From IMG/VR virus record IMGVR_UViG_3300045988_159115: a DNA stretch of 64,000 nt; one strand, written 5' to 3'. Shown here one piece after another: positions 4,390 to 57,932 of this stretch. How positions within the stretch are numbered: the stretch's first letter is position 1; every line of letters starts with the position of its first letter. Under the pieces are notes generated by a model. That model had not been told where the DNA came from, did not search any database, and worked only from the letters and a program-made list of their open reading frames with translations. The stretch is from a virus. The position numbers and the translations under genes are program-made.

Positions 4390-4445
4390 CTTCCTTTGTA
4401 TTAGATTTTGTTAGGAGTATTAAAGATGTGTTTTCACGCCATATC

Positions 4446-4628
4446 TTACGAGGCAATATCATTCCAAATAATCATCAGAGATATTCCTCGTTCTGAGTCA
4501 CTTACTTCTTCTTCACTGATATATGAGCATTTCATGCATCCATACCAGATGTCTATATATCCAGTTTTATTATTCAACTTACTACATTTATAAACTCTAT
4601 TGGATTTACACATGGGGCACTCTCTCAT
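4446..4628 (-). CDS. small Cys4 zinc-ribbon protein
   Basis: 60 aa with CPMC...(22)...CMKC. SD AAGGAG about 10 nt upstream of the ATG. Sits inside the paralog cluster. Confidence 0.6.
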   Translation of the reverse strand: MRECPMCKSNRVYKCSKLNNKTGYIDIWYGCMKCSYISEEEVSDSERGISLMIIWNDIAS

Positions 4629-4662
4629 AACACAGCCACTCCTTATTTTTTCGATGTGTGTA

Positions 4663-4711
4663 TTGATACATGAAGCACAAACGGCTTATACGAATGTGCT
4701 TCATGTATCAA
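4663..4711 (-). other. strong stem-loop without a U-run (processing, stability or attenuator element?)
   Basis: 16-bp perfect stem ttgatacatgaagcac / gtgcttcatgtatcaa in the spacer between 4789..5694 and 4446..4628. No T-run on either strand. Confidence 0.5.
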
Positions 4712-4788
4712 TGTAAGATTAGAATAGATTCTTAGCGTCTTTAGCAAAATCGTTTGCTTTACGCGCAGTATTTGCTCCTTGAATAGCT

Positions 4789-6971: not shown

Positions 6972-6995
6972 AAAACTTAGCTAATTGTTTTTTGG
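6972..6995 (-). promoter_or_regulatory. candidate phage promoter, class I (AACA-N6-TA core)
   Basis: Minus-sense CCAAAAAACAATTAGCTAAGTTTT. The TA lies ~42 nt upstream of the ATG at 6936. Confidence 0.55.
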
Positions 6996-9416: not shown

Positions 9417-9444
9417 AAACTTTAACTCATTGTTTTCAAGGCTA
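9417..9444 (-). promoter_or_regulatory. candidate phage promoter, class I
   Basis: Minus-sense AGCCTTGAAAACAATGAGTTAAAGTTTG, immediately downstream (minus sense) of terminator 9463-9506 and ~90 nt upstream of the ATG at 9328. Confidence 0.55.
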
Positions 9445-12701: not shown

Positions 12702-12730
12702 GGAAAACTTACCTAATTGTTTTTAGGTGC
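12702..12730 (-). promoter_or_regulatory. candidate phage promoter, class I
   Basis: Minus-sense GCACCTAAAAACAATTAGGTAAGTTTTCC, just downstream (minus sense) of terminator 12761-12807 and ~60 nt upstream of the ATG at 12647. Confidence 0.6.
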
Positions 12731-13125: not shown

Positions 13126-13130
13126 AATAT

Positions 13131-13180
13131 TGAAACCCTCATATCTCAGGTGTAAACTTCACCAAGATATGAGGGTTTCA
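13131..13180 (-). terminator. intrinsic terminator after 13228..13485
   Basis: Stem tgaaaccctcatatct / agatatgagggtttca (16 bp). Minus strand continues AATATTTTTATTT. Confidence 0.75.
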
Positions 13181-13227
13181 ATTATAAAATAGAGAGGATC
13201 CTTACCAACGAAAGCAAATGAATCTTA

Positions 13228-13485: not shown

Positions 13486-13668
13486 ATGAGTAATACCATC
13501 CTTTCATTACGATATTGAGTAATCTAATGCCGAAGCATCTTTAAGATTTGTCCTGAGATATTACTCCTTAGTTACAAGAACTTCTCCATATTCCAATTAC
13601 CAGGCTTTCCATGCACACTGGGATTACCATTATCTGTCCATATAATGATAGCGCCAGTGCAATAAGAT

Positions 13669-13845
13669 TTAACTTTTTTGGTCCGCCTGTACCGATGATC
13701 CTTCAGGAATATCTTTAGTAGCTCCATTACTTTCAGAGCCAAAGATAAGGACGCCCTTGATATTATATGCTCTTTTCAGAGGATTTCCTTTTGAATCAAA
13801 TGCCGATTTAAGTAAGGATGAGCTCGATACATCATAGATAGCCAT
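13669..13845 (-). CDS. unlisted small ORF (58 aa), possibly continuing by frameshift to 13572
   Basis: ATG at 13845 is preceded by GGGAGGG 7 nt upstream, right after the stop of 13859... Translates MAIYDVSSSSLLKSAFDSKGNPLKRAYNIKGVLIFGSESNGATKDIPEGSSVQADQKS. Below the 60-aa cutoff of the ORF track. Confidence 0.5.
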   Translation of the reverse strand: MAIYDVSSSSLLKSAFDSKGNPLKRAYNIKGVLIFGSESNGATKDIPEGSSVQADQKS

Positions 13846-13858
13846 ATATTGCCCTCCC

Positions 13859-20185: not shown

Positions 20186-20240
20186 AACTTCTATTATCTC
20201 CCCTTTCTTTTAGTATTTATCAATACAAGTGAAAGTCTAA

Positions 20241-20270
20241 CTGATTAGAATACTGTTTTCAGGTGGTATG
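20241..20270 (-). promoter_or_regulatory. candidate phage promoter, class I
   Basis: Minus-sense CATACCACCTGAAAACAGTATTCTAATCAG, directly after hairpin 20274-20314 and ~60 nt upstream of the ATG at 20185. Confidence 0.55.
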
Positions 20271-20273
20271 TAA

Positions 20274-20314
20274 GATAGACACTGATACCCAATGAAGAAA
20301 TATCAGTGTCTATC
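20274..20314 (-). terminator. stem-loop (terminator or 3' end of the upstream non-coding transcript)
   Basis: 14-bp perfect stem gatagacactgata / tatcagtgtctatc. Only a weak U-run on the minus strand. Confidence 0.45.
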
Positions 20315-21226
20315 TTTGTCGGAAGTGCCAAAATGTGAAAGGAACATAGTGGTCCCCCACCGGGGTATCGGGCCCCATCTCACACCTATCTAGTGTCAAT
20401 GGAGGGGTATAGAGCCTCCTGCTTTCCTTAAGCTAATGGGGGATATCTATCTAATTGTATCTATAATAAAAATGCAGAGTAAGTTCACTGTTACGAAACT
20501 TACTCTGCATAGTAATGCCAAAATCGAGTTACTCCAAACTTCGTGGCTCCATGCATTCGCGATCGTTATAACGTCGCCGATCGTTGGACAACTCTATCGT
20601 TGCTTTCTAAAAACCTTACCGGAATCAAACCGATAAGTTGAGAAGCACTTACACGAGCGCCTACGGCGGCGATATAATCTTTATGGGAATACACTTTAAC
20701 CGGGAGCATGAGAAATTTTACTCAACCCTATGGGACGGCCAAATATAGCCGTGAATCCATAATCGAACTCCTTTTCATACATGCCATGGCATACAGGCCC
20801 GACATTTCTACAGAAGCGTTGGCCAATGGCCTCTGTACCTCGAGCACTGTAAACGTTAATCAGTATTTTGAAGTCCACAACCGAAAGCAAATAACGATGC
20901 AAAGTCAAAAACTCAAATGACAATTGGAGGCAACCAAAAGCAACAAGAAAAAGACTGAAGTTACATGCCATATGATACTTCATACTGATTCCCCAGAATC
21001 TTACTGGGCCCGATATAGTTATGTGGAAGCTATATCATCGAACTTCGGGCGCTCGAGCGCGTCCTAACATAGAACGGAGGTCTATGTCTATCCAGTAGCC
21101 ACTACTCAAATGACCGGCGTCACTGACGGCGTCAGCCAACATGGGGCTACCAAGACCGAATGAGAAAAACTCATAGACACTGTCTACGATAAAAAACTCA
21201 TTCATACCATATAGTTGAGAAGATTT
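20315..21226. ncRNA. ORF-poor, hairpin-rich segment downstream of the beta-helix gene (candidate structured RNA or long 3' UTR)
   Basis: No ORF with an SD or protein-like composition. 14-bp hairpin at 20472-20510. Palindromes atgccatggcat, gcgctcgagcgc, ctgacggcgtcag. Hairpin ATGAG-AAAAA-CTCAT at 21160-21174. Confidence 0.3.
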
Positions 21227-21922
21227 TTATTTATTTATATCATAATCCGGAGGGAGCTCTCCGTTCAGCTTAGCTGCTTTCAATTCAGCTTTCGCTTCAC
21301 GATTCCTCTTTATGAACATTGTGGTTCCGTGCTTTTCACGATACGGAAGCTTTATTTGGCCAAGATCAGTTACGCTATTTAACTCAGCCTTATTATACGT
21401 CTTTATTTTATCGCTATTATGCAGAGCAACGTCGACGAAGCGGCCTTCATTGATGATGTAGTTACCAGAGATCGAAGCATTCTCAAGATATGCACCAATC
21501 ATACAAGATTTCTCATAAAGATTGATGCAATTCCCTTTCTTCAAAACACAGTTCATCACTTTAGAGCTACAACCAACTACGCTATCATATATGGTAGAGT
21601 CTTCAATTGTAGCATCTTCCATAATAGCACTTTTCTTATCAATGATCGAATTTTTAACTTTTGCATTACCGGATACAAAACCAAACCGAACGACCGAGTT
21701 CACGATCTTTGCATTGGCACAAACGAAACCATTTGCCGCAAACACCCAACTCTTATCAGAATGAGTATTCGGAATTGCATCTTTGCTTGATACAAATCCT
21801 CCTTGTGTTCCACAAGGAATAAATGTCCCATCCATAGCAACAAAATCTTCCTGTGCAACGATCGTATACAACTCTTTGGAAAATGACGTTGCCGCAGCGG
21901 GAAGAAGCTTATACTTCGGCAT
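21227..21922 (-). CDS. beta-helix (hexapeptide-like) repeat protein
   Basis: The ATG at 21922 (MPKYKLL) follows GAAGGGTG. Periodic repeats NAKIVNSVV / GNAKVKNSII / DATIEDSTIYDSVVG / SKVMNCVL / NASISGNYII. Confidence 0.7.
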   Translation of the reverse strand: MPKYKLLPAAATSFSKELYTIVAQEDFVAMDGTFIPCGTQGGFVSSKDAIPNTHSDKSWVFAANGFVCANAKIVNSVVRFGFVSGNAKVKNSIIDKKSAIMEDATIEDSTIYDSVVGCSSKVMNCVLKKGNCINLYEKSCMIGAYLENASISGNYIINEGRFVDVALHNSDKIKTYNKAELNSVTDLGQIKLPYREKHGTTMFIKRNREAKAELKAAKLNGELPPDYDINK

Positions 21923-21964
21923 TTTCAACACCCTTCTTTCATGATTCAATAGAATACCAAGCCT

Positions 21965-21985
21965 AAATTAAGTACCTGTCTTTGC
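21965..21985 (-). promoter_or_regulatory. candidate promoter, class II variant (GACA-N6-TAA)
   Basis: Minus-sense GCAAAGACAGGTACTTAATTT, ~45 nt upstream of the ATG at 21922. Confidence 0.25.
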
Positions 21986-21989
21986 TATG

Positions 21990-22600
21990 GTAGATAATCA
22001 CTACTACACACGGAAATTGAAAGAACCGTATGTAGTAGTGATTACCCATGTAGGATGTGGATGTGTTACCTGCGTTCTGATCGCTCAAAACAGAAAGGTT
22101 ACTATGATGAGAGAAACTCATTGTATCTGTGTGCCCTTCATCCACTTAGGGCGGAAATAACTAAGAGAGGGAGGTTTAACCTTTCGTCTAATCCCATATG
22201 CGCCCTCAAAAACAGTACGAGGAACGCCACAGTAATTAGCCTTATGCAGCCAGGTCTGTGTCAACCTGGCACTCCAGCCTACCAAAGGATGCGTATACAT
22301 CTGTCTCTCCGAAGAGTCCGCATTTACTCCTCTGGCTGTTTTCGGAACCACAATGGCACATGCGAGAAAACCAGCCAACTCGGGCTATATGCACCAAGCC
22401 CACGCGTCCCTGTTATGAGCCATTATTGTTCACAATCCCCGTTTCCGGTAACTAAAGCCAGCTAAGCTATAGCGGATCATGGTCGGCTACACCTATCATA
22501 AAAGGGCAATAAGCGTTACATCTGTCGTCACGACAGTTGCTTCGGGATTTCACCGAATAAAAACCTTGCTTAGAATGAATTCTTTAATCCATTCTATCTC
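21990..22600 (-). ncRNA. candidate large structured RNA (class unknown)
   Basis: ORF-free and visibly G+C-richer than its flanks. 19-bp hairpin 21995-22044 whose single mismatch becomes a G.U pair only on the minus strand. C(UUCG)G tetraloop on the minus strand at 22307-22316. Hairpins at 22249-22270, 22382-22401 and 22522-22536. Long-range helices 22148-53/22201-06 and 22334-42/22367-76. Confidence 0.4.
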
Positions 22601-22699
22601 AATGTTAGAAGGTTGATTATTTATAAAAAAGATTCCATTCTAATTCCTGAGATTACGTTAGTGTAAGAAACTCAGTAGAAAAGAAAGGATTGGAATGAT

Positions 22700-23188
22700 A
22701 TGAGCAACTATTTTCGTACGACATATTTTCCACATCATGATGATACATGGACGGGTGATTTTCATCCCAAGTTCTATAAAGGGATTCCTGGTGCTACCAT
22801 GGATGACTTTCTTACGCATATTGATTCACGATATGATGATGTATATTCATATTTCTTTGAAGTGGTTGATGCAGACGGAGTCGTTGACTGGACAGATAAG
22901 AATCTGGTTGAAGACTATCTCGACTACGTCCGGTATTACTACTTCAAAGAACATGACTGCGTGAGAGCACACCACAGAAGTAAATGCTGCTATTTGTGCA
23001 AGCATTTCATTTCCAATGGAAAAAATAGAAAATTCCTTGGGAGCTGTCTCTATGGACTTGAGAAACCTGATCAATTCCCTCGTCGTCATGTTGGAAATTA
23101 TCATGCAAAGCATGGATTTGAAACATGCAAAAACTTCGAGATGAAGCAATATTATCTCGATAAAAGAGAAGTCAAATTAAAGAGATAA
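22700..23188 (+). CDS. hypothetical Cys/His-rich protein
   Basis: 162 aa, SD AAAGGA. C-terminal half carries CVRAHHRSKCCYLCKHF...C...H...H..H....C. This is the only plus-strand gene in the neighbourhood. Confidence 0.7.
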   Translation: MSNYFRTTYFPHHDDTWTGDFHPKFYKGIPGATMDDFLTHIDSRYDDVYSYFFEVVDADGVVDWTDKNLVEDYLDYVRYYYFKEHDCVRAHHRSKCCYLCKHFISNGKNRKFLGSCLYGLEKPDQFPRRHVGNYHAKHGFETCKNFEMKQYYLDKREVKLKR

Positions 23189-24277: not shown

Positions 24278-24300
24278 TCTATACACCTCCTAAAAGAAAA

Positions 24301-24338
24301 ATAAGCCTGACTACGATTTACTCTATAGTCAGGCTTAT
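24301..24338 (-). terminator. intrinsic terminator after the RNAP subunit gene
   Basis: Stem ataagcctgacta / tagtcaggcttat. Minus strand continues TTTTTCTTTT. Confidence 0.8.
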
Positions 24339-24343
24339 ATTAT

Positions 24344-26449
24344 TTATTCCTCATCGTTGACTTCATCAATCACCGAATCAGAATCGGTGGACATTGCATG
24401 GTCCTCGATGAACCGTTCCGTAGAAGTGGTCTTCTTGAAGTATGCGTCAATGTAAGAAGGAGCGTTCTTGATCGTAACCAAGTTATCGCTCATCAACTGA
24501 CGCTTGATGTCCTGACCAGCAAAGCCGAGCAGAGGAGACTTATTGTGCTCGATTGCACGAGAGACGGTAAGAATCTTGTACTTACCAACCTCATCCTTCG
24601 TAAAATCAGGACGCTCAAAATCAACATCTGGATCCTTACGAATCAGACGACTGATGATCAGCTCACCAGACAGTGCAGTTGCACCAATCTTTGCATCAAG
24701 CAGAAGGTCGGTAAACTTCTGTGCCATCTCATGATAGTTGGACGTGACGTTCTGATCTGCTTTCGCCTTACTATTCAGAAGACTCATCAGAGAGTACAGC
24801 GGCTTCGTCAGCTCGTTGTTCATGATGACGATACTGAACAGAGTAGTCAGTTCATTCATCTCAGAGAAACGAGCATAACCACGACCCTTACGAACGAGAT
24901 CAATCAGGTCATCCGTCAAGAACAGCTCACGGTCTTCATCCGTAGAAATCCAGATAGACTCATGAGTTTTCATGTTCTGCACATAGAAGCCGCCGAGCAC
25001 GTAGCTGTTGAACGAAGAATCTTCGTCCAGTTCATCTGCTTTCTGAATGGAAGTAGGATCAATCCAAACTGCCCAGTCTTCAATATCGGGAATTGCGTCA
25101 TCCCCAATCTTCGGACTCACCTCGCCACAGTACAGCTTGAAGAAACGATTGAACTCTTCAGAGAAGTTGATCTTCTCAGATACCGTGGTAAGCAGATGCT
25201 TTGCAGACAGAATCATCTGGTTCACAACCTTAGTGAACTCCTCAACTTCAAAGCCAACGACGCCAGCAGAAATATCGAAGTTCATCGTAGACGTACGGCC
25301 AAAACAAACATGACACACTTCATCATGACACGAACAAGTAATCGGACTACGGAAATTAACCCAAGTACCAATCAACTGCGTATCCTTTCTTGCATTCACA
25401 AGACGGATTTCGCCATTTGCATCAACGTAGTACCGGTTGTTATACTTCTGAAGCATCTGAGGAGTTTTGATATAAATCTTCAGATAATGCTTCGTTCCAC
25501 AATCCGACACGGTCTTGGACAGAGACAAAGTACGTGCCAACAGAAGGACAAGCTTACCGAAATAGCCAGCATTGCCCATGACCTTCTTATTCATAATCAG
25601 AGATTTGCGAGCGCCCAATGCATCAATGTAATGAGAACTCGGTTTATCCAGACCACGAATCAGAGTAGAAGAGTTGATAGGAAGCGGGATGGTAATACCA
25701 GCAAGGTCAGGTTTCAAGCCCATATGAGCAGTGAACTCAACGAGCTGCTTGTGCTTAATGCCCGTATCCGCACGAAGAATCGTACCAACGGGATCATCCT
25801 TCCGAGATTTGATCTCAGCGATCAATCTCTTCTGAATATCAGCCAGAGAATCTTCAATCTCACTCGGCTGCATATCAAGCGGGAATCTGGTTTCCATCAG
25901 CTCACGAAGGGTAGGATCATCACGATACCAATGCAGGAACGTTTCACTGGACATCGTCAGACCCATAATCAGAGAGAAGTTGATCGAAATGCTTCGCAGA
26001 TCATGAAGCACATTCGAAATAGAGTTGTTGACTGTGGTATTTCGCACACTGTAATCTCTCAGTGCAGTGACGATTTTCTGATCAATGTAGTCCTTCAGAT
26101 GAGGAACTTCATTCCAGCAGTCAAAGATATAGTTTTCATCCATCTCGAAGTCCGTATCATACAGATTCACGAGAGGATGCCACATGAAAAGATTGATGAG
26201 AAAGTGACGCAGTTGAAGCGTATGAATCTTCTCATCACGGTTCTCTTTATAAAACTTGAAAGGCACCATATACTCACGGCAATCTTTCTTTTCAAAGCAC
26301 CCTTTTACGATCATGTAGATTTGATCAACCAGCGCACTATAATCTTCGTCGCACCTCATATAGTCGTTGATGAAATAAATTGGGCGTAAAAACGTCTTCA
26401 GTTCTTCAACGTCATGAATCTCAGGGACAATGTTGCTGTTGCTACTCAT
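24344..26449 (-). CDS. multisubunit RNA polymerase beta-prime subunit, C-terminal half (stand-alone gene)
   Basis: GLDKPSSHYIDALGARKSLIMNKKVMGNAGYFGKLVLLLARTLSLSKTVSDCGT aligns with the bacterial beta-prime bridge-helix region (G.....YFIS.HGARKGLADTALKTA.SGYLTRRLVDVAQD......DCGT). No NADFDGD motif is present, so the N-terminal half must be encoded elsewhere. Confidence 0.8.
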   Translation of the reverse strand: MSSNSNIVPEIHDVEELKTFLRPIYFINDYMRCDEDYSALVDQIYMIVKGCFEKKDCREYMVPFKFYKENRDEKIHTLQLRHFLINLFMWHPLVNLYDTDFEMDENYIFDCWNEVPHLKDYIDQKIVTALRDYSVRNTTVNNSISNVLHDLRSISINFSLIMGLTMSSETFLHWYRDDPTLRELMETRFPLDMQPSEIEDSLADIQKRLIAEIKSRKDDPVGTILRADTGIKHKQLVEFTAHMGLKPDLAGITIPLPINSSTLIRGLDKPSSHYIDALGARKSLIMNKKVMGNAGYFGKLVLLLARTLSLSKTVSDCGTKHYLKIYIKTPQMLQKYNNRYYVDANGEIRLVNARKDTQLIGTWVNFRSPITCSCHDEVCHVCFGRTSTMNFDISAGVVGFEVEEFTKVVNQMILSAKHLLTTVSEKINFSEEFNRFFKLYCGEVSPKIGDDAIPDIEDWAVWIDPTSIQKADELDEDSSFNSYVLGGFYVQNMKTHESIWISTDEDRELFLTDDLIDLVRKGRGYARFSEMNELTTLFSIVIMNNELTKPLYSLMSLLNSKAKADQNVTSNYHEMAQKFTDLLLDAKIGATALSGELIISRLIRKDPDVDFERPDFTKDEVGKYKILTVSRAIEHNKSPLLGFAGQDIKRQLMSDNLVTIKNAPSYIDAYFKKTTSTERFIEDHAMSTDSDSVIDEVNDEE

Positions 26450-26648
26450 AAATTCACTTCAGTCCTTTCAATGATTTCTCATGGGTTATGTGTCTGTAAC
26501 CTAACCCATTCTTTTCTAATGAATACGTACTACATATTATAATCCTCCTTTAATAAGCATCGAATATATAATATATAATCATAAAGAATTATAAGATAGA
26601 ACAAATAGGTATCGCTTAGATAGGCGATAAGATAAGTATATAATATGC

Positions 26649-26736
26649 GTCACCGTGGTGGAATTTTGGCAGACACGTAGCTCTGAGGCGGCTATCCGTT
26701 TAATTATGGGTCCCGGTTCAAGCCCGGGCGGTGACA
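26649..26736 (+). tRNA. tRNA-Leu: tRNA-Leu (anticodon GAG), class II
   Basis: Acceptor gtcaccg/cggtgac, anticodon stem tagct/ggcta with loop cTGAGgc, 17-nt variable arm, T arm cccgg-ttcaagc-ccggg, discriminator A. No encoded CCA. Confidence 0.8.
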
Positions 26737-26741
26737 CTCAC

Positions 26742-26819
26742 GCTAGATTAGCTCAGTTGGCAGAGCGATTGATTTGTAATCAATAGGTTCCTAGGGTTCG
26801 AGCCCCTAATCTAGCTCCA
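26742..26819 (+). tRNA. tRNA-Thr: tRNA-Thr (anticodon UGU), CCA encoded
   Basis: Acceptor gctagat/atctagc, D arm gctc-agttggca-gagc, anticodon arm attga-ttTGTaa-tcaat, T arm taggg-ttcgagc-cccta. By my fold the variable region is unusually long (7 nt). Confidence 0.7.
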
Positions 26820-26820
26820 A

Positions 26821-26860
26821 AAAATACCAGGTGGATAGATAATATTCTACCTGGTATTTT
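26821..26860 (+). terminator. intrinsic terminator after the tRNA-Leu/Thr pair
   Basis: Stem aaaataccaggt / acctggtatttt, followed by TTATT. Confidence 0.75.
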
Positions 26861-26910
26861 TATTCATTTAAATGCAATAGACGATTTATAATAAATTATA
26901 AATCTATAAC

Positions 26911-26920
26911 TATATTATAT
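26911..26920 (+). promoter_or_regulatory. TATATTATAT box immediately upstream of tRNA-Ser
   Basis: Exact 10-mer also present upstream of 42800 (+) and 13052 (-). Lies 8 nt before the mature tRNA 5' end. Confidence 0.3.
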
Positions 26921-26927
26921 CATATAT

Positions 26928-27019
26928 GCCAGTGTGGTGGAGTTGGTCGAACACACCGGTCCTGAAAACCGGCATACGCTAATAACGTATCCTCGGATCG
27001 TACCCGAGCGCTGGCGCCA
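26928..27019 (+). tRNA. tRNA-Ser: class II tRNA, best read as tRNA-Ser (anticodon UGA) with C at position 33; CCA encoded
   Basis: Acceptor gccagtg/cgctggc, anticodon arm ccggt-ccTGAaa-accgg, variable arm with 5-bp stem atacg/cgtat, T arm ctcgg-atcgtac-ccgag, discriminator G. Confidence 0.6.
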
Positions 27020-27020
27020 T

Positions 27021-27047
27021 AGAGGATGACAACATCCTCTCATTTTT
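27021..27047 (+). terminator. intrinsic terminator after tRNA-Ser
   Basis: Stem agaggatg / catcctct, followed by CATTTTTG. Confidence 0.7.
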
Positions 27048-27144
27048 GATATCACCGTGACAGTAATCTTCATTGTTGTGTCATGGATTGGACATATATT
27101 TGACCTCCTAAAAATCAGATACTTTCACCTACCATATCTTCTGC

Positions 27145-27172
27145 TTGACCTGGATGTGGTAGGTGTTAGTAT
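27145..27172 (+). promoter_or_regulatory. sigma-70-like promoter candidate for tRNA-Gln
   Basis: TTGACC (27145-50), 16-nt spacer, TAGTAT (27167-72), then 8 nt to the tRNA 5' end. Confidence 0.35.
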
Positions 27173-27180
27173 CCCAATAA

Positions 27181-27254
27181 TGAGGCGTAGGCCAATGGTA
27201 AGCCAGTGTTCTTTGAAAGCACTGAATCCGGATCGTAACCGGGCGCCTCAGCCA
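27181..27254 (+). tRNA. tRNA-Gln: tRNA-Gln (anticodon UUG), CCA encoded
   Basis: Acceptor tgaggcg/cgcctca (U1-A72, discriminator G), D arm ggc-caatggtaa-gcc, anticodon arm gtgtt-ctTTGaa-agcac, T arm tccgg-atcgtaa-ccggg. Confidence 0.8.
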
Positions 27255-27262
27255 ATAAACGT

Positions 27263-27307
27263 AATATACCCTATACTGGATGAAATACTCTCAGTATAGG
27301 GTATATT
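27263..27307 (+). terminator. stem-loop/terminator after tRNA-Gln
   Basis: 16-bp stem aatataccctatactg / cagtatagggtatatt, followed by ATTCT. Confidence 0.6.
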
Positions 27308-27381
27308 ATTCTGCTAAGTGGTTCACAAACACTTAACGACGTTTCACTATTATTCTTACCAAAGAAAGGAAATGTAAACTT

Positions 27382-27903
27382 ATGATGTACGTTGCTAACT
27401 TCCAAAGAATCAGTGATCATGCATGGGATGAAATTCGTCGTAATACGGAAGACGGCTATGAGCGTCTTTGCCGTTACGACGAGATCAAACTTCCTACTCG
27501 TGCAACGAAGGACAGTGCAGGATTTGACTTCTATCTGACCGAAGATATCTCCCTGAAGAGCGGTAAATCTATTGTCATCAACACTGGCGTTCGTTGCAAG
27601 ATTGATCCGGGTTGGATGTTGATGCTGTGCCCTAAGAGTGGGCTCGGCTTTAAGTTCCACATGAGTCTTGCAAATACCGTAGGAATCGTGGATGGCGATT
27701 ATTACAACACTCATTGTGAAGGTCCTTCTGACGAGGGTCATATCATGGTGAAGATCTATAATGGCGGAGAATACGGAAAAGAAATCAACCTGAAGAAAGG
27801 TGATAAGTTCTGCCAAGGCATCTTCCTCCAGTATGGTCTTGCATATACTACAGATACTGAGTATGTAACTCGGAATGGTGGTTTTGGCTCTACTGGTCGA
27901 TAA
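27382..27903 (+). CDS. dut: dUTP diphosphatase (trimeric dUTPase)
   Basis: All five dUTPase motifs are present: AGFDFY, PKSGLG, GIVDGDYY, KFCQGIF, RNGGFGSTGR. Confidence 0.95.
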   Translation: MMYVANFQRISDHAWDEIRRNTEDGYERLCRYDEIKLPTRATKDSAGFDFYLTEDISLKSGKSIVINTGVRCKIDPGWMLMLCPKSGLGFKFHMSLANTVGIVDGDYYNTHCEGPSDEGHIMVKIYNGGEYGKEINLKKGDKFCQGIFLQYGLAYTTDTEYVTRNGGFGSTGR

Positions 27904-35182: not shown

Positions 35183-37246
35183 TTAGCAGAGAACCATCTG
35201 GTTACCAGTAATCAGCAGAGACAGCAGATCAACGGTAGCATTCAGAACCTCGCGATCGGTTTCTGTAGAATTGATAACGTCACTGGTGAAATGACCAGTG
35301 GTAACATCAAGGACAACGCCATTCTGCCGAGAATAACGGTCCACAAATGCAACGACTGAATAGTGGACATCACCAGTTAATGAAGCATCATCGACGAGAG
35401 TAGAGAAAACCTTATTTGCCTTATCACGATCGGCATAAATCTTACGATGTGTTTTCTCATCGCAATAGATGACACAGTTTTCATCTGTGCCTCTCCAGAA
35501 CTCCGATACGTTAATAGTAGCATCGGAAGGATAGATGCTGTTAACGATCGTATCATAGGCAGTGAGATATCCAGATGCCAGGATGTTCAGGATATCATAG
35601 TAGAGTTCCTCATCATCACTGCAATTCTTCGTCAGCGGACGCTCCTTCATCAGAGTATCAATGGCATCGAGCAAGCTGACATTACAGCCAAGGACAACAC
35701 CATTATTGAATGCTGATGCGGCTGCCTTCACAGCGTCGTCCACAGAATCCTTCAGATAGCCCTGAGACATCTGAGAAGCTGCACCAACCTCGATCACACC
35801 AGTCTTAAGACCAAGTGCATTCAAACGCTGCTGCTTTTCCACGATAGACAGACTGAAAGAGCCAATCATCTCAAGCTTATGCTGTGCTTCAGCAAGCTCA
35901 GACTTAGCCACTCTCACAGTCGTCTCATACACATTCGGATCATAGTAAAATCCTGCAAAAATAGACTCCTTCATACCGAGGGTAGCCTTTTCGCAGTATC
36001 CAACACGAATCAGATTCGTAGCATCGTTCATGAAAATGGTATTCTTATCAATCGTCTCGTCATATGCAGCAAGACGGAGTGCAATACCATTCGGATCTGC
36101 CGGAGTTGGATTCGGGACCATCACGGCGATATTAGATCCGGGGATATTTCGATTATCCAGATCAAACTGCTTATAGATATCCGGATCCTTTTCCAGTGCT
36201 TCCAAAATCTGATCCTTCACCACACGGGTAATAACCGGAGTATTCAGAAGCATAGCCAGATCGTTCAGCAGGGTACGTGCATGTGCATTTGTCTTATTGC
36301 AGACAAGCAGAACCAGAGAGATAGAGCCATGCTGCTTCAGATCCTCAAGCAGGTCACGACGAATCGGACCGCCAAGTGCAACATCATCGTACCAAGGAGC
36401 AATACATGCAAGCTTACGACCACGCTGCTTGGATGCCTCACACAGAGGCTTCAAAATCTTATCATAGATATTCTGATCGACCTTATTGTCGAACACGATG
36501 TAATCCATGGGGCCTGCACTCATGGTATTATCATCATTATTGATATAAGACTGATCAGTCAGGGAAGTATCAATCTTATAGCCATTAATGGTGTATGCAT
36601 GAGTAGAGCCATCCTTGGAATTTGCAACGGAGATTGCAGGGAACTGAAGCTCCCTGTAAAGATCGGAAATCATATTGGTAATCTCTTCATTACCATTGGA
36701 AGAGACGTAGACGACCTTCTTGATATTCTCAGCCAGAACATCGGGATCATCAGACTGAATTGAAATTGCTCGCTTATTCAGCTCTTCGATCACATCATCC
36801 TTTACCCGATTCATCATCTTCATGATTTCACGGGGAAGAGCTCGATTGAGAGAGCAGTCACTCAGCTTCTTACGCATCCGATAAGACTCGTAAACACCAC
36901 GAGTTGCAACAACCGCAGTCGTAGTACCATCACCAACGGTAAAGTTCAGACGATCACAGATGGTAGACATCATATTCTTGATAGTGTGATCAATCTTCGT
37001 GTTGAACTCCAGGTACTTCATGATGGAATAACCATCTTTTGTATTGAAGAAGGTAGACTGGGTAGAAGAAGGAACGACGATGAACGTACCAGCACCAGCA
37101 GGGCCAAAAGACATGACCAGCTTTTCCCAGATGGTATTAAACACCTGGCCGACACGCTTATCGAATTCATCTTTGGAATAGACGTTGATCAGAGGCTCAC
37201 GATCGAGATCACTCCGACCAAAATCCATATCATCGGTAGTTTTCAT
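35183..37246 (-). CDS. GroEL/thermosome-like chaperonin (long, divergent)
   Basis: SFGPAGAGT (compare GroEL LGPKGRN), VGDGTTTAVV (ATP-site GDGTT motif), AFNNGVVLGCNVSLLDA (compare AVEEGIVPGGGVALI), C-terminal VINSTETDREVLNATVDLLSLLITGNQMV (compare [29 protein letters not shown]). 687 aa. Confidence 0.7.
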   Translation of the reverse strand: MKTTDDMDFGRSDLDREPLINVYSKDEFDKRVGQVFNTIWEKLVMSFGPAGAGTFIVVPSSTQSTFFNTKDGYSIMKYLEFNTKIDHTIKNMMSTICDRLNFTVGDGTTTAVVATRGVYESYRMRKKLSDCSLNRALPREIMKMMNRVKDDVIEELNKRAISIQSDDPDVLAENIKKVVYVSSNGNEEITNMISDLYRELQFPAISVANSKDGSTHAYTINGYKIDTSLTDQSYINNDDNTMSAGPMDYIVFDNKVDQNIYDKILKPLCEASKQRGRKLACIAPWYDDVALGGPIRRDLLEDLKQHGSISLVLLVCNKTNAHARTLLNDLAMLLNTPVITRVVKDQILEALEKDPDIYKQFDLDNRNIPGSNIAVMVPNPTPADPNGIALRLAAYDETIDKNTIFMNDATNLIRVGYCEKATLGMKESIFAGFYYDPNVYETTVRVAKSELAEAQHKLEMIGSFSLSIVEKQQRLNALGLKTGVIEVGAASQMSQGYLKDSVDDAVKAAASAFNNGVVLGCNVSLLDAIDTLMKERPLTKNCSDDEELYYDILNILASGYLTAYDTIVNSIYPSDATINVSEFWRGTDENCVIYCDEKTHRKIYADRDKANKVFSTLVDDASLTGDVHYSVVAFVDRYSRQNGVVLDVTTGHFTSDVINSTETDREVLNATVDLLSLLITGNQMVLC

Positions 37247-38132: not shown

Positions 38133-38831
38133 TTAGAAAGGCAGATCCTCTGCACTGAATGCAGAATTAGCAGAAGGGGAAGTGGAAGGGACATCGGAAG
38201 ACTGAGCATTATTACCAGTCTGGAGACCATTGCCCCAGCTGTTAAAGAATGCATTGGACTGAGTAGAGACACCAAAGATGTCGTTGATATTCTTCAGAGC
38301 ATTGTAGAAGAACATGAACTCAGCCTCAGTAGACTTCACGGTACCATTGCCGGTATTGGGATCGTAATCCAGGACAACCTTGGTCTTATTGAACTTGTAG
38401 ATGTACCGGTTCGAAGGATCACAAGTGTTATCCTGATTTGCGCTGACATAGCCGATGAAATAGAGAGTAGGAACACCCTTGTCATCCTTTGCATACTGGA
38501 TGACAATGATAGCATTCTTATTGCCCATCTTCATAGCAACGTTGACAGGCTTCTCCAGATCCTCGCCAGCTTCCACCTTCTTGATAACGGGAACGATATG
38601 CTCATCAATAAGCTGAGTCAGACCCAGAGCCTTCTGTGCAGTAATTGCAGTAGAGAAGCTACGGTTCCGATCATACTGACGGATACCATCCTCGTTGGTA
38701 CCACTGCAAGGATTCAGACGAATGGAAATCATATCATTCCAATAGGTCATGCCCATCGAAGCAGTGTCGCCATAAAAGGTTTTGATGTTAGTAGAAACGT
38801 TTTTGCGATTAGTGTTAGAATTGTAAGGCAT
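38133..38831 (-). CDS. single-stranded-DNA-binding-like protein with an SSB-type C-terminal tip
   Basis: 232 aa, SD AAAGGAG. Has a G/N/S/Q-rich flexible tail ending in EDLPF, the same tip as bacterial SSBs (DDDIPF / DDDLPF). The N-terminal body is not a textbook SSB OB sequence. Confidence 0.55.
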   Translation of the reverse strand: MPYNSNTNRKNVSTNIKTFYGDTASMGMTYWNDMISIRLNPCSGTNEDGIRQYDRNRSFSTAITAQKALGLTQLIDEHIVPVIKKVEAGEDLEKPVNVAMKMGNKNAIIVIQYAKDDKGVPTLYFIGYVSANQDNTCDPSNRYIYKFNKTKVVLDYDPNTGNGTVKSTEAEFMFFYNALKNINDIFGVSTQSNAFFNSWGNGLQTGNNAQSSDVPSTSPSANSAFSAEDLPF

Positions 38832-38892
38832 AATAAAATTCTCCTTTGTGTTTCAAAATTACGTATGTGTAAGTCGGACGATATGAAATCAT

Positions 38893-41877: not shown

Positions 41878-41901
41878 ACTATAAAAACAGTAGTGTAATG
41901 A
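41878..41901 (+). promoter_or_regulatory. candidate phage promoter, class I
   Basis: Plus-sense CTATAAAAACAGTAGTGTAATGAC, ~45 nt upstream of the ATG at 41941. Confidence 0.45.
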
Positions 41902-42603: not shown

Positions 42604-42619
42604 CTTCTATGGAATAATT

Positions 42620-42668
42620 GGAATGAACCGATGTCCGGGTTTAAATTACTCAGACATCGGTTCATTCC
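42620..42668 (+). terminator. intrinsic terminator
   Basis: 16-bp stem ggaatgaaccgatgtc / gacatcggttcattcc, followed by ATGTTTTG. Confidence 0.8.
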
Positions 42669-42725
42669 ATGTTTTGAAAAAAGTAAGGAGAGCACAAAGT
42701 TAAGAGAAAATTTAAGACTAATTAT

Positions 42726-42745
42726 GTTTATATATTATATATTTG
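42726..42745 (+). promoter_or_regulatory. TATATTATAT box (candidate second promoter type)
   Basis: GTTTATATATTATATATTTG lies ~55 nt upstream of the ATG at 42800 and is followed by a 7-bp hairpin at 42752-42780. Confidence 0.3.
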
Positions 42746-42799
42746 TATTAACCAGGCGACATAAAATTTAATGCGCCTGGGTTTAGGAGGTGATTCATT

Positions 42800-43021
42800 A
42801 TGAAGTATGACCAGGCAGTTCTTGATCGAATGGCTGATAGTTATGAAAAGTATCTCTATTTTCTAAAGAGGTACATCGTGCTCGAAGGGCTCGAAGAAAA
42901 GACATACAAAAAGCATGTAAAAAAGATCAAGAAGATGATTAAGCATCTACGTAAGGGAGAGGGAGACAAAGTTCTCATTCCCGAGCGTTATCTTGCTTAT
43001 GTCGAGAAGTACGGAAAGTAA
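42800..43021 (+). CDS. small basic helical protein
   Basis: 73 aa, SD AGGAGGTG. Confidence 0.75.
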   Translation: MKYDQAVLDRMADSYEKYLYFLKRYIVLEGLEEKTYKKHVKKIKKMIKHLRKGEGDKVLIPERYLAYVEKYGK

Positions 43022-49525: not shown

Positions 49526-49761
49526 GAGACCTAGATGGCCGTAGACGAACTGATAGTTTCTAAGCAAGAGTATTGATGAAACGATGGATGATTGTCCGAG
49601 ATCTATATGTTCGTAGACGATATGATTCTTGAAATTCACCAAAAGTAGACTTATATCGAATTGATACTGGAGATCTAAAATGTTCGTAGAAGGTATCTTG
49701 GAGATATAAGTTTACCAGCGAAGTGGGAGTACTGTCAGGAGATCTAGATGATCGTAGAATG
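49526..49761. repeat. four imperfect direct repeats (~22-30 bp) at 72, 72 and 69-bp spacing (iteron-like array)
   Basis: gagacctagatggccgtagacg (49526), gagatctatatgttcgtagacg (49598), gagatctaaaatgttcgtagaag (49670), gagatctagatgatcgtagaatg (49739). Consensus GAGATCTAnAtGnTCGTAGA. Confidence 0.8.
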
Positions 49762-49927
49762 ATTGCTGTCATTTCCCTGAATTTTAGAAGATACCGAGCT
49801 AAGATTCAGTGATTTCGGATTTATATTCTGCAAGTCGAATTAGTCTCCCTGGAATCACGGGAGTACCGGAATACAAAATAAAGTCCGAATATCAACCCAT
49901 CATCCTAACAAAGCGTTTAAAGTAAGT

Positions 49928-49967
49928 AAAATGCCCTATAGAGTTGAGATACTCTATAGGGCATTTT
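49928..49967 (-). terminator. intrinsic terminator after 49975..51261
   Basis: 16-bp stem aaaatgccctatagag / ctctatagggcatttt. Confidence 0.8.
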
Positions 49968-49974
49968 CTAATGC

Positions 49975-51644: not shown

Positions 51645-51670
51645 GCACCTGAAAACAATAGGGTAAGCGA
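51645..51670 (+). promoter_or_regulatory. candidate phage promoter, class I
   Basis: Plus-sense GCACCTGAAAACAATAGGGTAAGCGA, ~55 nt upstream of the ATG at 51719. Confidence 0.6.
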
Positions 51671-56973: not shown

Positions 56974-57885
56974 ATGAAATCCGCAATTCAGTTCAAGCTG
57001 GAAACTGCTGGATTAGATGAGCGTGAAGCAAAAGTTCTCGATTTCATTCATGCCAAGAATAAAGCAAAGGATCGTATGGATCAAATGAGTGCATTTGAAA
57101 ACGATCCCGAGCATATGCGTCGCATGACACTGAAAGCTGCAGAAGACGGCAAGTCCGTTTGCATTGATACAGTCCTTGGTCAAATCTATAAGAACGCACT
57201 TCCTTACAACGATCCCGACAAGAACCTTTCTCCGTCGGACGCTGGTGCAGAAGTTCGCGATTTTATTGCCAAGCGCTGTGATAATAAGCCTACAGAATAC
57301 TACGTCCGTGAAGCTCTGAAGAAGAATAATTCTTCTGTGCTTCGTACGATCGTAACTGAGGCTGAAAACGCTGCTAAGCATGCAGTCACCATCAAGAAGA
57401 ATAACATTGGTCGTATTGATCCTGAGTCGATTCATTACGATCCCACAGCAAACGATACTGCTATCAAGAACATCAATGCAAAGATGAGCCTTGATGAAAT
57501 CAGTGATATCATCAAGAATAACGTCCAGACTACCATTGATGCAGAGAAGCAGAAGGTTGCTGACGAGGATCAGTATCGTCATGATATTGAAGATACTCTC
57601 GCTCAGGATAATAAGATCATGGACAATCAGACCATGCAGGATGCCGTGAACGAAGCTACAAACTACCGTTTCTCAGGTCGTCCGAAGGTATACCAGCCCT
57701 CTCTCTTCGAGGCTATTATGATGAATAAGGCCAATAAGATGCAGGGCTCCGATCCTCAGGATATCTTTACAGAGGCCGTTCATGAGTATACAAAGCTCGC
57801 AATGCTGAAGGCTCTGAAGCTGGAGAATTTCGATCTTCGCAACACTCGTGATATGACCTATAAGTATATCACTAACAAGGCTTAA
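56974..57885 (+). CDS. hypothetical protein
   Basis: 303 aa, SD GAAAGGTGG. Helical and charged. Confidence 0.8.
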   Translation: MKSAIQFKLETAGLDEREAKVLDFIHAKNKAKDRMDQMSAFENDPEHMRRMTLKAAEDGKSVCIDTVLGQIYKNALPYNDPDKNLSPSDAGAEVRDFIAKRCDNKPTEYYVREALKKNNSSVLRTIVTEAENAAKHAVTIKKNNIGRIDPESIHYDPTANDTAIKNINAKMSLDEISDIIKNNVQTTIDAEKQKVADEDQYRHDIEDTLAQDNKIMDNQTMQDAVNEATNYRFSGRPKVYQPSLFEAIMMNKANKMQGSDPQDIFTEAVHEYTKLAMLKALKLENFDLRNTRDMTYKYITNKA

Positions 57886-57886
57886 A

Positions 57887-57932
57887 TGATAGGCTAGAAG
57901 GAATATGAAAACCTTCTAGCCTATCATTTTTT
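57887..57932. terminator. bidirectional terminator between convergent genes
   Basis: 15-bp stem tgataggctagaagg / ccttctagcctatca, followed by TTTTTT. Confidence 0.85.

What the first reader, a model, noticed from the sequence alone, without database searches (positions are those of the whole stretch)
21950..22690. ORF-free, G+C-richer, helix-dense ~0.65-kb segment: candidate large structured RNA of unknown class
Spacers elsewhere in this genome are mostly under 100 nt, yet this stretch has no ORF with an SD or protein-like composition. The listed ORFs 22055..22465 and 22118..22378 are Cys/Arg/Ser-rich and overlap each other. The sequence is visibly more G+C-rich than its flanks and contains many G-C helices:
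- A 19-bp hairpin at 21995-22044 whose only mismatch is C.A on the plus strand but a G.U wobble on the minus strand.
- A C(UUCG)G tetraloop on the minus strand at 22307-22316.
- Hairpins at 22249-22270 (GCCAGGT/ACCTGGC), 22382-22401 and 22522-22536.
- Nested long-range pairings 22148-53/22201-06 and 22334-42/22367-76.
Large ornate RNAs such as ROOL and GOLLD are known from phages and prophages of Firmicutes and often lie near tRNA genes. A tRNA cluster sits ~4 kb away here. I could not recognise group I, group II, RNase P or tmRNA signature sequences by eye.
Basis: partly seen in the sequence, partly recalled or inferred. Interest (0 to 1): 0.78.

Follow-up and report, generated by a model that had tools for sequence, protein, structure and literature searches.

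The report
New large structured RNA in jumbo phage
The gene-free stretch is a real gene for a roughly 665-base folded non-coding RNA on the minus strand; it matches no catalogued RNA family, I found it only in one group of uncultivated human-gut jumbo phages, and RNAs this large and ornate are rare and poorly understood.

Summary
Window 21923-22699 is the longest non-coding gap in the window, is G+C-richer than its flanks (0.47-0.52 against about 0.40), and folds far better than shuffled sequence (z = -7.1 for 21988-22654, minus strand).

I collected about 22 distinct homologues from five lineages (W, X, Y, Z, V) of a 250-264 kb phage clade distantly related to PBS1/AR9.
- **Conserved structure.** Invariant single-stranded blocks alternate with helices that keep pairing while their sequences change. 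That makes 18/34, 9/28 and 5/6 pairs with compensatory changes in three tests, against slid-register controls.
- **Strand.** G.U pairs outnumber A.C 54 to 8, so the RNA is on the minus strand.
- **Independent detection.** A covariance model built without lineage V still finds V (E = 3e-6).
- **Not coding.** The long plus-strand ORF is broken or frame-shifted in relatives.
- **No known family.** No Rfam family matches, even at E <= 10.
- **Own transcription unit (inferred).** A conserved AR9-type promoter-like motif (block A, also found upstream of the RNA polymerase beta' gene) predicts a start at about 22654. A 23-bp hairpin ends the RNA at about 21992. A separate promoter-like motif follows for the downstream gene.

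Verdict: a stand-alone structured ncRNA of a new family. Its function is unknown; I think it most likely acts in trans as a compact folded RNA.

The parts
22649..22666 (-). Block A, TTACACTAACGTAATCTC: promoter-like element (class 2, T-ACA-N6-T-A). By analogy with AR9, the predicted transcription start is the A at 22654.
   Evidence: Near-invariant in all five lineages. The motif TNACANNNACNTAA occurs 4 times against 0.53 expected. The other three copies lie 27-45 nt upstream of start codons, including RNA polymerase beta'. It fits the AR9 late-promoter layout A(-11)ACA-N6-U-A/G(+1) except at -11 (PMC5449584). Promoter function is inferred.
22596..22653 (-). P1: extended 5' hairpin (AUCUC...GAGAU base, covarying UUAG/CUAA versus GUAG/CUAC, variable apical stem).
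   Evidence: Shared helix in averaged pair probabilities. It is more stable in the minus sense than the plus sense in 16 of the 17 distinct sequences folded. V has a different, perfect 8-bp stem at the same place.
22572..22595 (-). Extra hairpin present only in lineage W (insertion).
   Evidence: Alignment A5 columns 126-152 are gapped in the other lineages; the fold is.
22562..22570 (-). Block B, AGCAAGGUU: invariant single-stranded segment.
22518..22557 (-). Hairpins C (UUCGG/CCGAA, invariant) and D (GCAaCUGUCG-UGA-CGACAGaUGU).
   Evidence: 100% paired in 21 sequences. D has two compensatory pairs (AU/GC; AU/CG/UA) and G.U pairs that fit only the minus strand.
22376..22519 (-). Multi-junction domain: block E GUAACGCU; long-range helix h2 (22497-22506 with 22408-22417); helix h3 (22474-22481 with 22431-22438); hairpin b with conserved loop UAGCUGG (22451-22473); hairpin e with GAAA loop (22439-22448); hairpin f (22382-22401); invariant GAGUUG (22376-22381).
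   Evidence: Covariance model R1 matches this exact span at 137 bits and finds lineage V, which was left out of the seed, at E = 3e-6. 83.9% of cells are paired against at most 55% when slid, 18/34 pairs have compensatory changes, and 0/500 shuffles reach the observed score.
22333..22377 (-). Helix c (UGGCUG/CAGCCA) enclosing a variable hairpin.
   Evidence: Four of six pairs have compensatory changes.
22311..22332 (-). Helix d (GAGGAGU/ACUCUUC) with invariant 8-nt loop AAAUGCGG (22318-22325).
   Evidence: Three of seven pairs have compensatory changes and up to four pair types.
22285..22310 (-). Invariant single-stranded blocks J (GGAGAG, 22305-22310) and K (AUACGCAUCCUU, 22285-22296). Candidate tertiary partners are J with CUCUCU, CGCAU of K with AUGCG of the d loop, and CCUU of K with AAGG of block B.
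   Evidence: Invariant in all sequences. The pairings are inferred only, because there is no variation to test them.
22164..22284 (-). 3' junction domain: long-range helix g (GGuAGG 22278-22283 with CCUCC 22170-22174) enclosing hairpin k1 (22249-22270), extended hairpin k2 (22186-22241) and conserved junction strands (UGGAG; AGGUUAAAC 22174-22182), followed by block M CUCUCU (22164-22169).
   Evidence: Helix g is 100% paired in lineages X, Y, Z and V, with 5/6 pairs compensatory. k1 stems differ within W and between lineages but always pair.
22133..22152 (-). Hairpin i (GCCCU...AGGGC).
   Evidence: A different stem sequence occupies the same position after CUCUCU in W, X, Y, Z and V.
22048..22132 (-). 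Variable region with one or two lineage-specific hairpins.
   Evidence: Poorly alignable between lineages; folds.
21992..22047 (-). Terminal 23-bp hairpin with conserved stem UAAUCACyAC/GUrGUGAUUA: probable 3' end or terminator.
   Evidence: I11. Compensatory UA/CG and several G.U pairs. There is no U-run after it, so terminator function is inferred.
21968..21979 (-). ACAGGTACTTAA: separate promoter-like motif for the downstream hexapeptide-repeat gene (ATG 21922). It is not part of the RNA but marks its boundary.
   Evidence: Conserved in all lineages (columns 826-840). It matches ACA-N6-TAA and lies 45 nt upstream of the ATG, the spacing seen at other genes.

Best explanation
Window ~22654 to ~21990, minus strand, is a gene for a ~665-nt non-coding RNA of a previously uncatalogued family, carried by a clade of ~250-264 kb uncultivated gut jumbo phages distantly related to PBS1/AR9.

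**Shown:**
- The sequence is not protein-coding.
- It is conserved as blocks of invariant single-stranded sequence separated by at least a dozen helices.
- Those helices keep pairing through compensatory and G.U changes across five lineages.
- The pairing is strand-specific (minus strand).
- The helices form a 5' hairpin, two hairpins, a multi-way junction domain closed by a long-range helix, a central pair of helices with an invariant AAAUGCGG loop, a second junction domain closed by another long-range helix, and a long terminal hairpin.

**Inferred:**
- The phage's own multisubunit RNA polymerase transcribes it from block A. This is a T-ACA-N6-T-A promoter of the class that also precedes the polymerase beta' gene, so expression is probably early or middle in infection.
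- The RNA starts at about 22654 and ends at the terminal hairpin.
- The next gene has its own promoter.
- The RNA itself is therefore the product.

**Proposed mechanism (inferred):** the invariant unpaired blocks dock on each other (GGAGAG with CUCUCU, AUGCG with CGCAU, AAGG with CCUU). This would lock the two junction domains into one compact particle. The particle would act in trans during infection as a binding platform for a protein or another RNA, possibly self-assembling or catalytic, much as other large ornate phage-associated RNAs are thought to act.
For: **Non-coding.** The long + strand ORF is split in L003 (95% identical), absent in X, X2 and Z, and in a different frame in Y. Gene callers' antisense ORFs differ between lineages.

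**Conserved structure.**
- RNAalifold gives 65 pairs, 21 of them compensatory.
- Junction domain: 83.9% paired against at most 55% when slid, 18/34 pairs compensatory, covariation 0.388 against 0.166, 0/500 shuffles.
- Helices C, D, c and d: 98.8% paired against at most 43%, 9 pairs compensatory.
- Helix g: 100% paired, 5/6 compensatory.
- Hairpins f, k1 and i have different stems in each lineage.

**Independent detection.** Model R1, built without lineage V, finds V at 37 bits, E = 3e-6. It gives no false hit in 274 kb.

**Strand.** 54 G.U cells against 8 A.C cells. P1 is more stable in the minus sense.

**Thermodynamics.** z = -7.1.

**No known family.**

**Own transcription unit.**
- The block A motif is enriched (4 observed against 0.53 expected), and the other copies sit upstream of start codons, including RNA polymerase beta'.
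- It has the AR9-type layout (PMC5449584).
- A second conserved promoter-like motif lies between the terminal hairpin and the next gene.
- A strong bidirectional terminator downstream of the 162-aa gene blocks read-in from upstream. It is seen in homologue L009; its presence in the window is assumed from homology.
Against: - There is no transcript evidence of any kind, so both ends are predictions.
- Block A has T rather than A at -11, a position essential in AR9, and I defined the class-2 motif post hoc from four sites.
- The terminal hairpin lacks a U-run.
- All homologues come from one narrow phage clade (five lineages). Independent substitution events are therefore few, and the shuffle control ignores phylogeny.
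- Part of the evidence rests on an alignment fitted to the structure (A9).
- The proposed tertiary pairings involve invariant bases and cannot be tested by covariation.
- Nothing here shows a trans function, assembly or catalysis.
Confidence: 0.62

Rival explanations
1. The RNA is the nucleic-acid half of a ribonucleoprotein with the divergently transcribed 162-aa Cys/His-rich, basic-tailed protein (22700-23188). The two would be co-expressed from the quasi-palindromic block A, and the protein would bind the conserved loops.
For: The two genes are adjacent and divergent in every lineage. Block A reads TTAC-N6-GTAA on both strands. On the plus strand it lies at a spacing from the 162-aa ATG similar to that of the other class-2 sites. 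The protein has 11 invariant Cys/His residues and a Lys/Arg tail.
Against: Synteny in one narrow clade proves little. The protein has no Pfam, PHROG or PDB match, and the AlphaFold model is unusable (pLDDT 40). On the plus strand the motif has ACG rather than ACA.
Confidence: 0.12
2. It is a very long cis-acting 5' leader that regulates the downstream hexapeptide-repeat (left-handed beta-helix) gene, for example a riboswitch-like or antitermination element.
For: It is on the same strand as, and immediately upstream of, that gene in all lineages. The terminal hairpin lacks a U-run, so read-through is possible.
Against: A conserved promoter-like motif with normal spacing lies between the hairpin and the gene. 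About 665 nt with two junction domains far exceeds known leaders. No Rfam cis-regulatory family matches.
Confidence: 0.1
3. It is a highly divergent member of a known RNA family (RNase P RNA, tmRNA, group I/II intron, ROOL, GOLLD, OLE, 6S) that Rfam models fail to recognise.
For: Short motifs such as AGCAAGG and CAGGUAAAC recall RNase P RNA sequences, from my own recollection. The RNA lies in a phage and near tRNA genes, as ROOL and GOLLD often do.
Against: cmscan with permissive filters at E <= 10 on the window locus, and at E <= 1 on four other lineages, returns only microRNA-type noise on the terminal hairpin. ARAGORN finds no tmRNA. The order of the recalled RNase P-like motifs is wrong. 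The locus is intergenic, so it is not an intron.
Confidence: 0.04
4. It is a DNA-level element rather than an RNA: a replication origin, a single-strand origin, or a dense array of protein-binding sites between divergent genes.
For: It is a long divergent intergenic region. The terminal hairpin stem is conserved in sequence like a palindromic operator. AR9-type polymerases can use single-stranded DNA templates.
Against: Compensatory changes preserve pairing between segments up to about 130 nt apart. The strong G.U over A.C asymmetry and GNRA-type loops point to a folded single strand of one polarity. There are no iterons or repeats of the conserved blocks elsewhere.
Confidence: 0.04
5. It is a protein-coding gene or a decayed pseudogene (plus-strand ORF 22055-22465 and the ORFs called in homologues).
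For: A 136-155-codon open frame exists in W, and gene callers annotated 160-188-aa ORFs in Y-lineage contigs.
Against: The frame is interrupted in a 95%-identical relative, absent in X and Z, and shifted in Y. It has no Pfam or PHROG hit. Conservation follows helices and loops, not codons.
Confidence: 0.02

Closest known systems
ROOL RNA (Rfam; rumen-originating, ornate, large)
   Same: Size class (about 0.6 kb), many helices and junctions with conserved unpaired blocks, no associated ORF, unknown biochemical function. From my own knowledge, ROOL occurs in phages and prophages and near tRNA genes. Here a tRNA cluster lies 4 kb away and a tRNA-like gene 1.5 kb away. ROOL forms RNA-only homo-oligomers (PMC12286853).
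   Different: No match to the ROOL model even at E <= 10. The conserved motifs and helix order are different. This RNA was found only in one jumbo-phage clade. Oligomerisation is untested.
[quoted passage not shown]
   Same: A large ornate RNA associated with phages and tRNA genes (my own knowledge) that forms homo-oligomeric cages (PMC12286853).
   Different: No model match. GOLLD is about 800 nt and unrelated in sequence and structure.
phi29 pRNA (packaging RNA)
   Same: A phage-encoded, stand-alone structured RNA made from a phage promoter that works as a folded, multimerising particle rather than as a message (my own knowledge).
   Different: pRNA is about 174 nt and there is no Rfam match here. 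Nothing links this RNA to the packaging motor.
HEARO/omega RNA of IscB and similar nuclease-guide RNAs
   Same: A large structured RNA encoded next to a small Cys/His-rich protein gene.
   Different: No Rfam match. The neighbour is only 162 aa, has no recognisable HNH or RuvC domain and is divergently oriented. There are no transposon ends.
AR9 nvRNAP late promoters (A(-11)ACA-N6-U-A/G(+1))
   Same: The window's class-1 motif AAAACA(A/G)TnAGnTAA fits the consensus exactly and precedes structural genes. Block A has the same spacing and the same T-A at -1/+1.
   Different: Block A and its three class-2 relatives have T at -11. The polymerase is only about 29% identical to AR9's. Uracil-containing DNA and start sites were not tested.

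Membership tests
ROOL / GOLLD / OLE / HEARO / raiA (large bacterial and phage ncRNA families in Rfam) | Match to the family covariance model at or near its gathering score | tested here: not met
   cmscan of the whole window at gathering thresholds finds only one tRNA. Permissive scans at E <= 10 on 21800-22800, and at E <= 1 on five homologous loci, give only microRNA-type noise.
ROOL / GOLLD | Large (0.5-0.8 kb) ornate RNA in a phage or prophage context near tRNA genes | tested here: met
   About 665 nt. The jumbo-phage context is shown by the RNAP beta' PHROG and virion proteins. tRNA cluster at 26649-27254; tRNA-like gene at 20350-20447. This is resemblance only, not homology.
ROOL / GOLLD | RNA-only homo-oligomeric assembly | not testable with these tools
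   Needs native gels or cryo-EM of the transcript.
Group I / group II introns | Rfam model match and insertion within a host gene with restorable exons | tested here: not met
   No hit. The element lies between two complete, divergently or tandemly oriented genes.
RNase P RNA / tmRNA / 6S RNA | Rfam or ARAGORN detection of the conserved core | tested here: not met
Protein-coding gene | An open reading frame conserved in position and frame among homologues | tested here: not met
   The ORF is split, absent or in another frame in relatives, and has no family hit.
Structured RNA (generic) | Base pairs maintained by compensatory substitutions beyond register-shift controls | tested here: met
   Caveat: five lineages only, and one of the alignments was fitted to the model.
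AR9-type nvRNAP promoter | AACA at -11 to -8 | tested here: inconclusive
   Block A has TACA, as do or nearly do three other intergenic sites in the window. Seven class-1 sites have AACA.
AR9-type nvRNAP promoter | Six-base spacer, then T(-1) and A/G(+1), upstream of a transcription unit | tested here: met
   TTACA-CTAACG-TA at 22666-22654, immediately before hairpin P1.
Intrinsic terminator | G+C-rich hairpin followed by a U-run | tested here: not met
   A 23-bp hairpin is present, but the tail is UCUACCAUAGC. Other hairpins in this genome do have A/T-run flanks.

The most novel reading that the evidence does not exclude
This would be a new class of large ornate RNA (over 600 nt) made by jumbo phages from an early/middle phage promoter. 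It would fold into a compact, pseudoknotted two-domain particle with an activity of its own. That activity could be self-assembly into a multimeric cage or scaffold like ROOL/GOLLD, catalysis, or service as the RNA core of a particle with the neighbouring zinc-type protein, used to take over or protect against the host.
Probability: 0.3. Interest if true: 0.85.

Novelty: new variant of a known kind. Interest (0 to 1): 0.72.

Why it matters
Bacterial and phage RNAs longer than about 500 nt with intricate conserved folds are very few: ribosomal RNAs, group II introns, OLE, GOLLD, ROOL, HEARO. Each has turned out to do something unusual, such as catalysis, guiding nucleases or building RNA-only cages. 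A further, unrelated family with strong covariation would add a new case. It sits in jumbo phages that bring their own RNA polymerases, and it appears to be wired to the same promoter class as a polymerase subunit gene.

It offers a tractable object of about 665 nt with defined candidate ends for probing, cryo-EM and ribozyme tests. It also shows that public gene calls at this locus (160-188-aa 'proteins') are artefacts. Its narrow distribution and unknown function limit the immediate impact.

Tried and rejected
- **blastn against GenBank phages:** the locus finds nothing.
- **Synteny with AR9:** none around the polymerase gene.
- **Collection scans:** the GTDB scan with TCGGAGAGN{6,10}ATACGCATCC returned over 120 loci, all chance hits, mostly one Streptomyces coding region. 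The IMG/VR hits L150-L152 from that pattern, and the 19 hits from GTAAATGCGGACNNNTCGG, lack helix d and all other blocks. A protein-profile scan for the hexapeptide gene found no new lineage. The family could therefore not be extended beyond five lineages.
- **MAFFT Q-INS-i:** unavailable.
- **Rejected pairings:** RNAalifold paired GGAGAG with CUUUCU, the complement of the neighbour's ribosome-binding site. I rejected that in favour of CUCUCU, which nests coaxially with helix g; both partners are invariant, so neither pairing can be tested. A possible pseudoknot between the UAGCUGG loop and GAGUUG overlaps helix c and fails in V. A small hairpin a' is not in a consistent register between lineages.
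- **Block A as a repeated motif:** the full 18-mer is unique in the window. Only the shorter class-2 core recurs.
- **GTAGTTAATTT motif:** not a general motif.
- **Terminal hairpin half-site:** not repeated elsewhere.
- **Neighbour proteins:** no Pfam, PHROG or PDB information for the 162-aa protein, and only a generic left-handed beta-helix for the 231-aa protein. The AlphaFold model of the 162-aa protein has pLDDT 40, so I made no fold search.
- **Literature:** searches found no prior description.
Full report
**1. The observation**

The window is a phage genome fragment.
- It encodes a jumbo-phage multisubunit RNA polymerase beta' subunit (24344-26449, PHROG 3015, E = 4.5e-48). Its nearest cultured relatives are PBS1/AR9, at about 29% identity.
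- It also carries virion proteins and a GroEL-like gene and a tRNA cluster.
- The region lies between a 231-aa hexapeptide-repeat gene on the minus strand and a 162-aa gene on the plus strand (22700-23188). The true start of the hexapeptide gene is ATG 21922.
- The gap 21923-22699 (777 nt) is the largest non-coding stretch in a window that is about 90% coding.
- G+C rises to 0.47-0.52 against about 0.34-0.42 in the flanks.
- Predicted folding energy is 4.6-4.9 standard deviations below dinucleotide shuffles on either strand. It is 7.1 below for the transcript proposed later. Each test used only 20 shuffles.

**2. Not a known RNA, and not coding**

Rfam 15 at gathering thresholds finds only a tRNA elsewhere in the window. 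Permissive scans (E <= 10 on 1 kb; E <= 1 on five homologous loci) return only microRNA-like noise on the long terminal hairpin. ARAGORN finds no tmRNA.

The plus-strand ORF 22055-22465 has no Pfam or PHROG match. In homologues it is split (L003, 95% identical), absent (lineages X, X2, Z) or read in another frame (Y). Public gene callers nevertheless annotated 160- and 188-aa ORFs antisense to the element.

**3. Homologues**

I fetched loci through the flanking proteins and through exact conserved DNA blocks. This gave about 22 distinct sequences in five lineages:
- W (the window's own lineage, with a W2 sub-lineage);
- X, with X2;
- Y, with Y2;
- Z;
- V.

Lineages are about 55-75% identical to one another across the region. 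All come from human-gut-type metagenome assemblies, on contigs up to 264 kb. Further scans of IMG/VR, of the GTDB genomes and of GenBank phages found nothing beyond this clade. Every extra hit was a chance match.

**4. Conserved structure**

Alignments show invariant blocks separated by segments that differ in sequence but keep pairing. In minus-strand sense, the invariant blocks are:
- UUACAnUAACGUAAUC
- AGCAAGGUU
- UUCGGUGnAAUCCCGAAGC
- GUAACGCU
- UAGCUGG
- GAGUUG
- GUAAAUGCGGAC
- UCGGAGAG
- AUACGCAUCCUU
- CAGGUwAAC
- CUCUCU

The tests gave these results.
- **Whole region.** RNAalifold on 17 sequences predicts 65 pairs, 21 with compensatory changes.
- **Junction domain 22376-22519.** I built a covariance model from W, X, Y and Z only. 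It recovers every locus and also finds lineage V, which was not in the seed, at 37 bits and E = 3e-6. It gave no other hit in 274 kb. On the resulting alignment, 83.9% of cells pair, against 34-55% when partners are slid by 1-3 columns. Eighteen of 34 pairs carry compensatory changes, against 5-9 when slid. The covariation score is 0.388, against 0.166 in shuffles (0/500).
- **Helices C, D, c and d.** On a plain MAFFT alignment of 22 sequences, 98.8% of cells pair, against at most 43% when slid, with nine compensatory pairs.
- **Long-range helix g.** It closes the 3' junction domain across about 130 nt. It is 100% paired in X, Y, Z and V, with 5/6 pairs compensatory: GGAGG/CCUCC, GACGAG/CUCGUC, GGCAAG/CUUGUC and AGGUGG/CUGCCU.
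- **Hairpins f, k1 and i.** Each has a different stem in each lineage at a fixed place next to an invariant block.
- **Terminal hairpin.** It covaries (UA to CG) and has G.U pairs.

Caveats: there are only five lineages, the shuffle control ignores phylogeny, and alignment A9 was fitted to the model. The slid-register controls keep relatedness, and they are far below the real register.

**5. Strand**

In the junction domain, 54 cells are G.U (pairs only on the minus strand) and 8 are A.C (pairs only on the plus strand). Hairpin D, helix d, h3 and the terminal hairpin likewise contain G.U pairs in the minus sense. The 5' hairpin P1 is more stable in the minus sense in 16 of the 17 distinct sequences folded. 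The RNA is therefore read on the minus strand, the same direction as most neighbouring genes.

**6. Ends and transcription (inferred)**

- **Class-1 motif.** The window contains the motif AAAACA(A/G)TnAGnTAA 40-70 nt upstream of at least seven genes, including virion-protein genes. This is exactly the AR9 non-virion polymerase late-promoter layout A(-11)ACA-N6-U-A/G(+1) (PMC5449584).
- **Block A.** Block A at the 5' edge of the element reads TTACA-CTAACG-TA. It belongs to a second group, T(T/C)ACAnnnACnTAA, with four copies against 0.53 expected. The other three copies lie 27-45 nt upstream of start codons. One precedes the polymerase beta' gene, where the ACAGnnnCnTAA core is conserved in two other lineages. 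I defined this motif after seeing the sites, so the statistic is indicative only.
- **Predicted start.** By the AR9 rule the start is A 22654, one base before hairpin P1.
- **No read-in from upstream.** A strong bidirectional terminator between the 162-aa gene and its convergent neighbour, seen in homologue L009, argues against read-in.
- **3' side.** The terminal hairpin (21992-22047) is followed by another conserved ACA-N6-TAA motif (21968-21979), 45 nt before the hexapeptide ATG. That gene therefore probably has its own promoter.

Together these make the RNA a separate unit of about 665 nt. It is probably co-regulated with an early/middle gene class.

Block A is quasi-palindromic (TTAC-N6-GTAA). 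It might also drive the divergent 162-aa gene.

**7. What it does**

Nothing here gives a function. The neighbours are uninformative. One is a generic left-handed beta-helix protein. The other is a 162-aa protein with 11 invariant Cys/His residues and a basic tail, but no detectable relatives of known function and an unusable AlphaFold model.

The anatomy has two junction domains closed by long-range helices and many invariant unpaired blocks. Several of those blocks are mutually complementary: GGAGAG/CUCUCU nests coaxially with helix g, AUGCG in the d loop matches CGCAU in block K, and AAGG in block B matches CCUU in block K. This is the anatomy of a compact, tertiary-structured RNA rather than of a message leader or an antisense regulator.

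My best reading is a trans-acting folded RNA particle made early or mid infection. The rivals, in order of weight, are:
- an RNP with the 162-aa protein;
- a cis-acting leader of the downstream gene;
- a very divergent member of a known family;
- a DNA-level element;
- a decayed gene.

**8. Comparison and novelty**

The RNA resembles ROOL and GOLLD in size, ornateness, phage context and proximity to tRNA genes. It fails the membership test for them and for every other Rfam family. Literature searches found no description of such an RNA in jumbo phages.

I file it as a new family within the known kind 'large ornate phage-associated ncRNA of unknown function'. Its distribution is narrow as far as the available collections show.

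Noticed in passing
window 20350-20447 (minus strand), within the ORF-poor gap 20186-20695; homologues L025:3981-4080, L026:4081-4174, L027:4101-4192, L022:298-389: A 98-nt tRNA-like gene that neither ARAGORN nor Rfam calls in the window. It has an acceptor stem ending in ACCA, D, T and long variable arms, but a 9-nt anticodon loop. In relatives the equivalent gene is called tRNA-Ile(UAU), a tRNA with a 4-base anticodon, or 'tRNA-Pyl' with anticodon CUA. This hints at unusual decoding or suppression in this phage clade.
   Followed up: partly
window 6977-6988(-), 9422-9433(-), 12709-12720(-), 20245-20256(-), 41887-41898(+), 51655-51666(+), 56920-56931(+): A recurrent motif AAAACA(A/G)TnAGnTAAg lies 40-70 nt upstream of start codons of structural and other genes. 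It matches the AR9 non-virion RNA polymerase late-promoter consensus AACA-N6-T-A/G, which suggests this uncultivated phage uses AR9-like transcription and perhaps dU-containing DNA.
   Followed up: partly
window 26486-26499(-), 27323-27336(+), 38859-38872(-): A second promoter-like class T(T/C)ACAnnnACnTAA is shared with block A of the RNA. The copies lie upstream of the RNA polymerase beta' gene, ORF 27382-27903 and ORF 38133-38831.
   Followed up: partly
window, e.g. 357-410, 4662-4712, 13129-13182, 24298-24341, 27262-27308, 49928-49967, 57884-57929: Many long (16-24 bp), near-perfect hairpins lie in intergenic regions, often flanked by A-runs and T-runs. They are probably bidirectional transcription terminators of this phage.
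   Followed up: no
L026:1970-2452, L161:864-1430, L162:864-1430 (public gene calls); window 22055-22465(+): Automatic gene callers annotated 160-188-aa 'proteins' antisense to the RNA in public assemblies. These ORFs are not conserved in frame between lineages and are almost certainly artefacts of the G+C-rich, stop-poor antisense strand.
   Followed up: yes
window 22700-23188(+): The 162-aa protein has 11 invariant Cys/His residues (C87, H91, H92, C96, C97, C100, C116, H130, H135, H138, C143) and a Lys/Arg-rich tail. It was found only in this phage clade and has no Pfam, PHROG or PDB relative.
   Followed up: partly
window 4390-4788, 13486-13858, 42604-42946, 49643-49974: Other gaps of 330-400 nt have no ORF of at least 70 codons by a crude gene call. 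No Rfam family hits them at gathering thresholds, and I did not examine them further.
   Followed up: no
window 35183-37246(-): A phage-encoded GroEL-like chaperonin (PHROG 5725, E = 4.7e-64).
   Followed up: no
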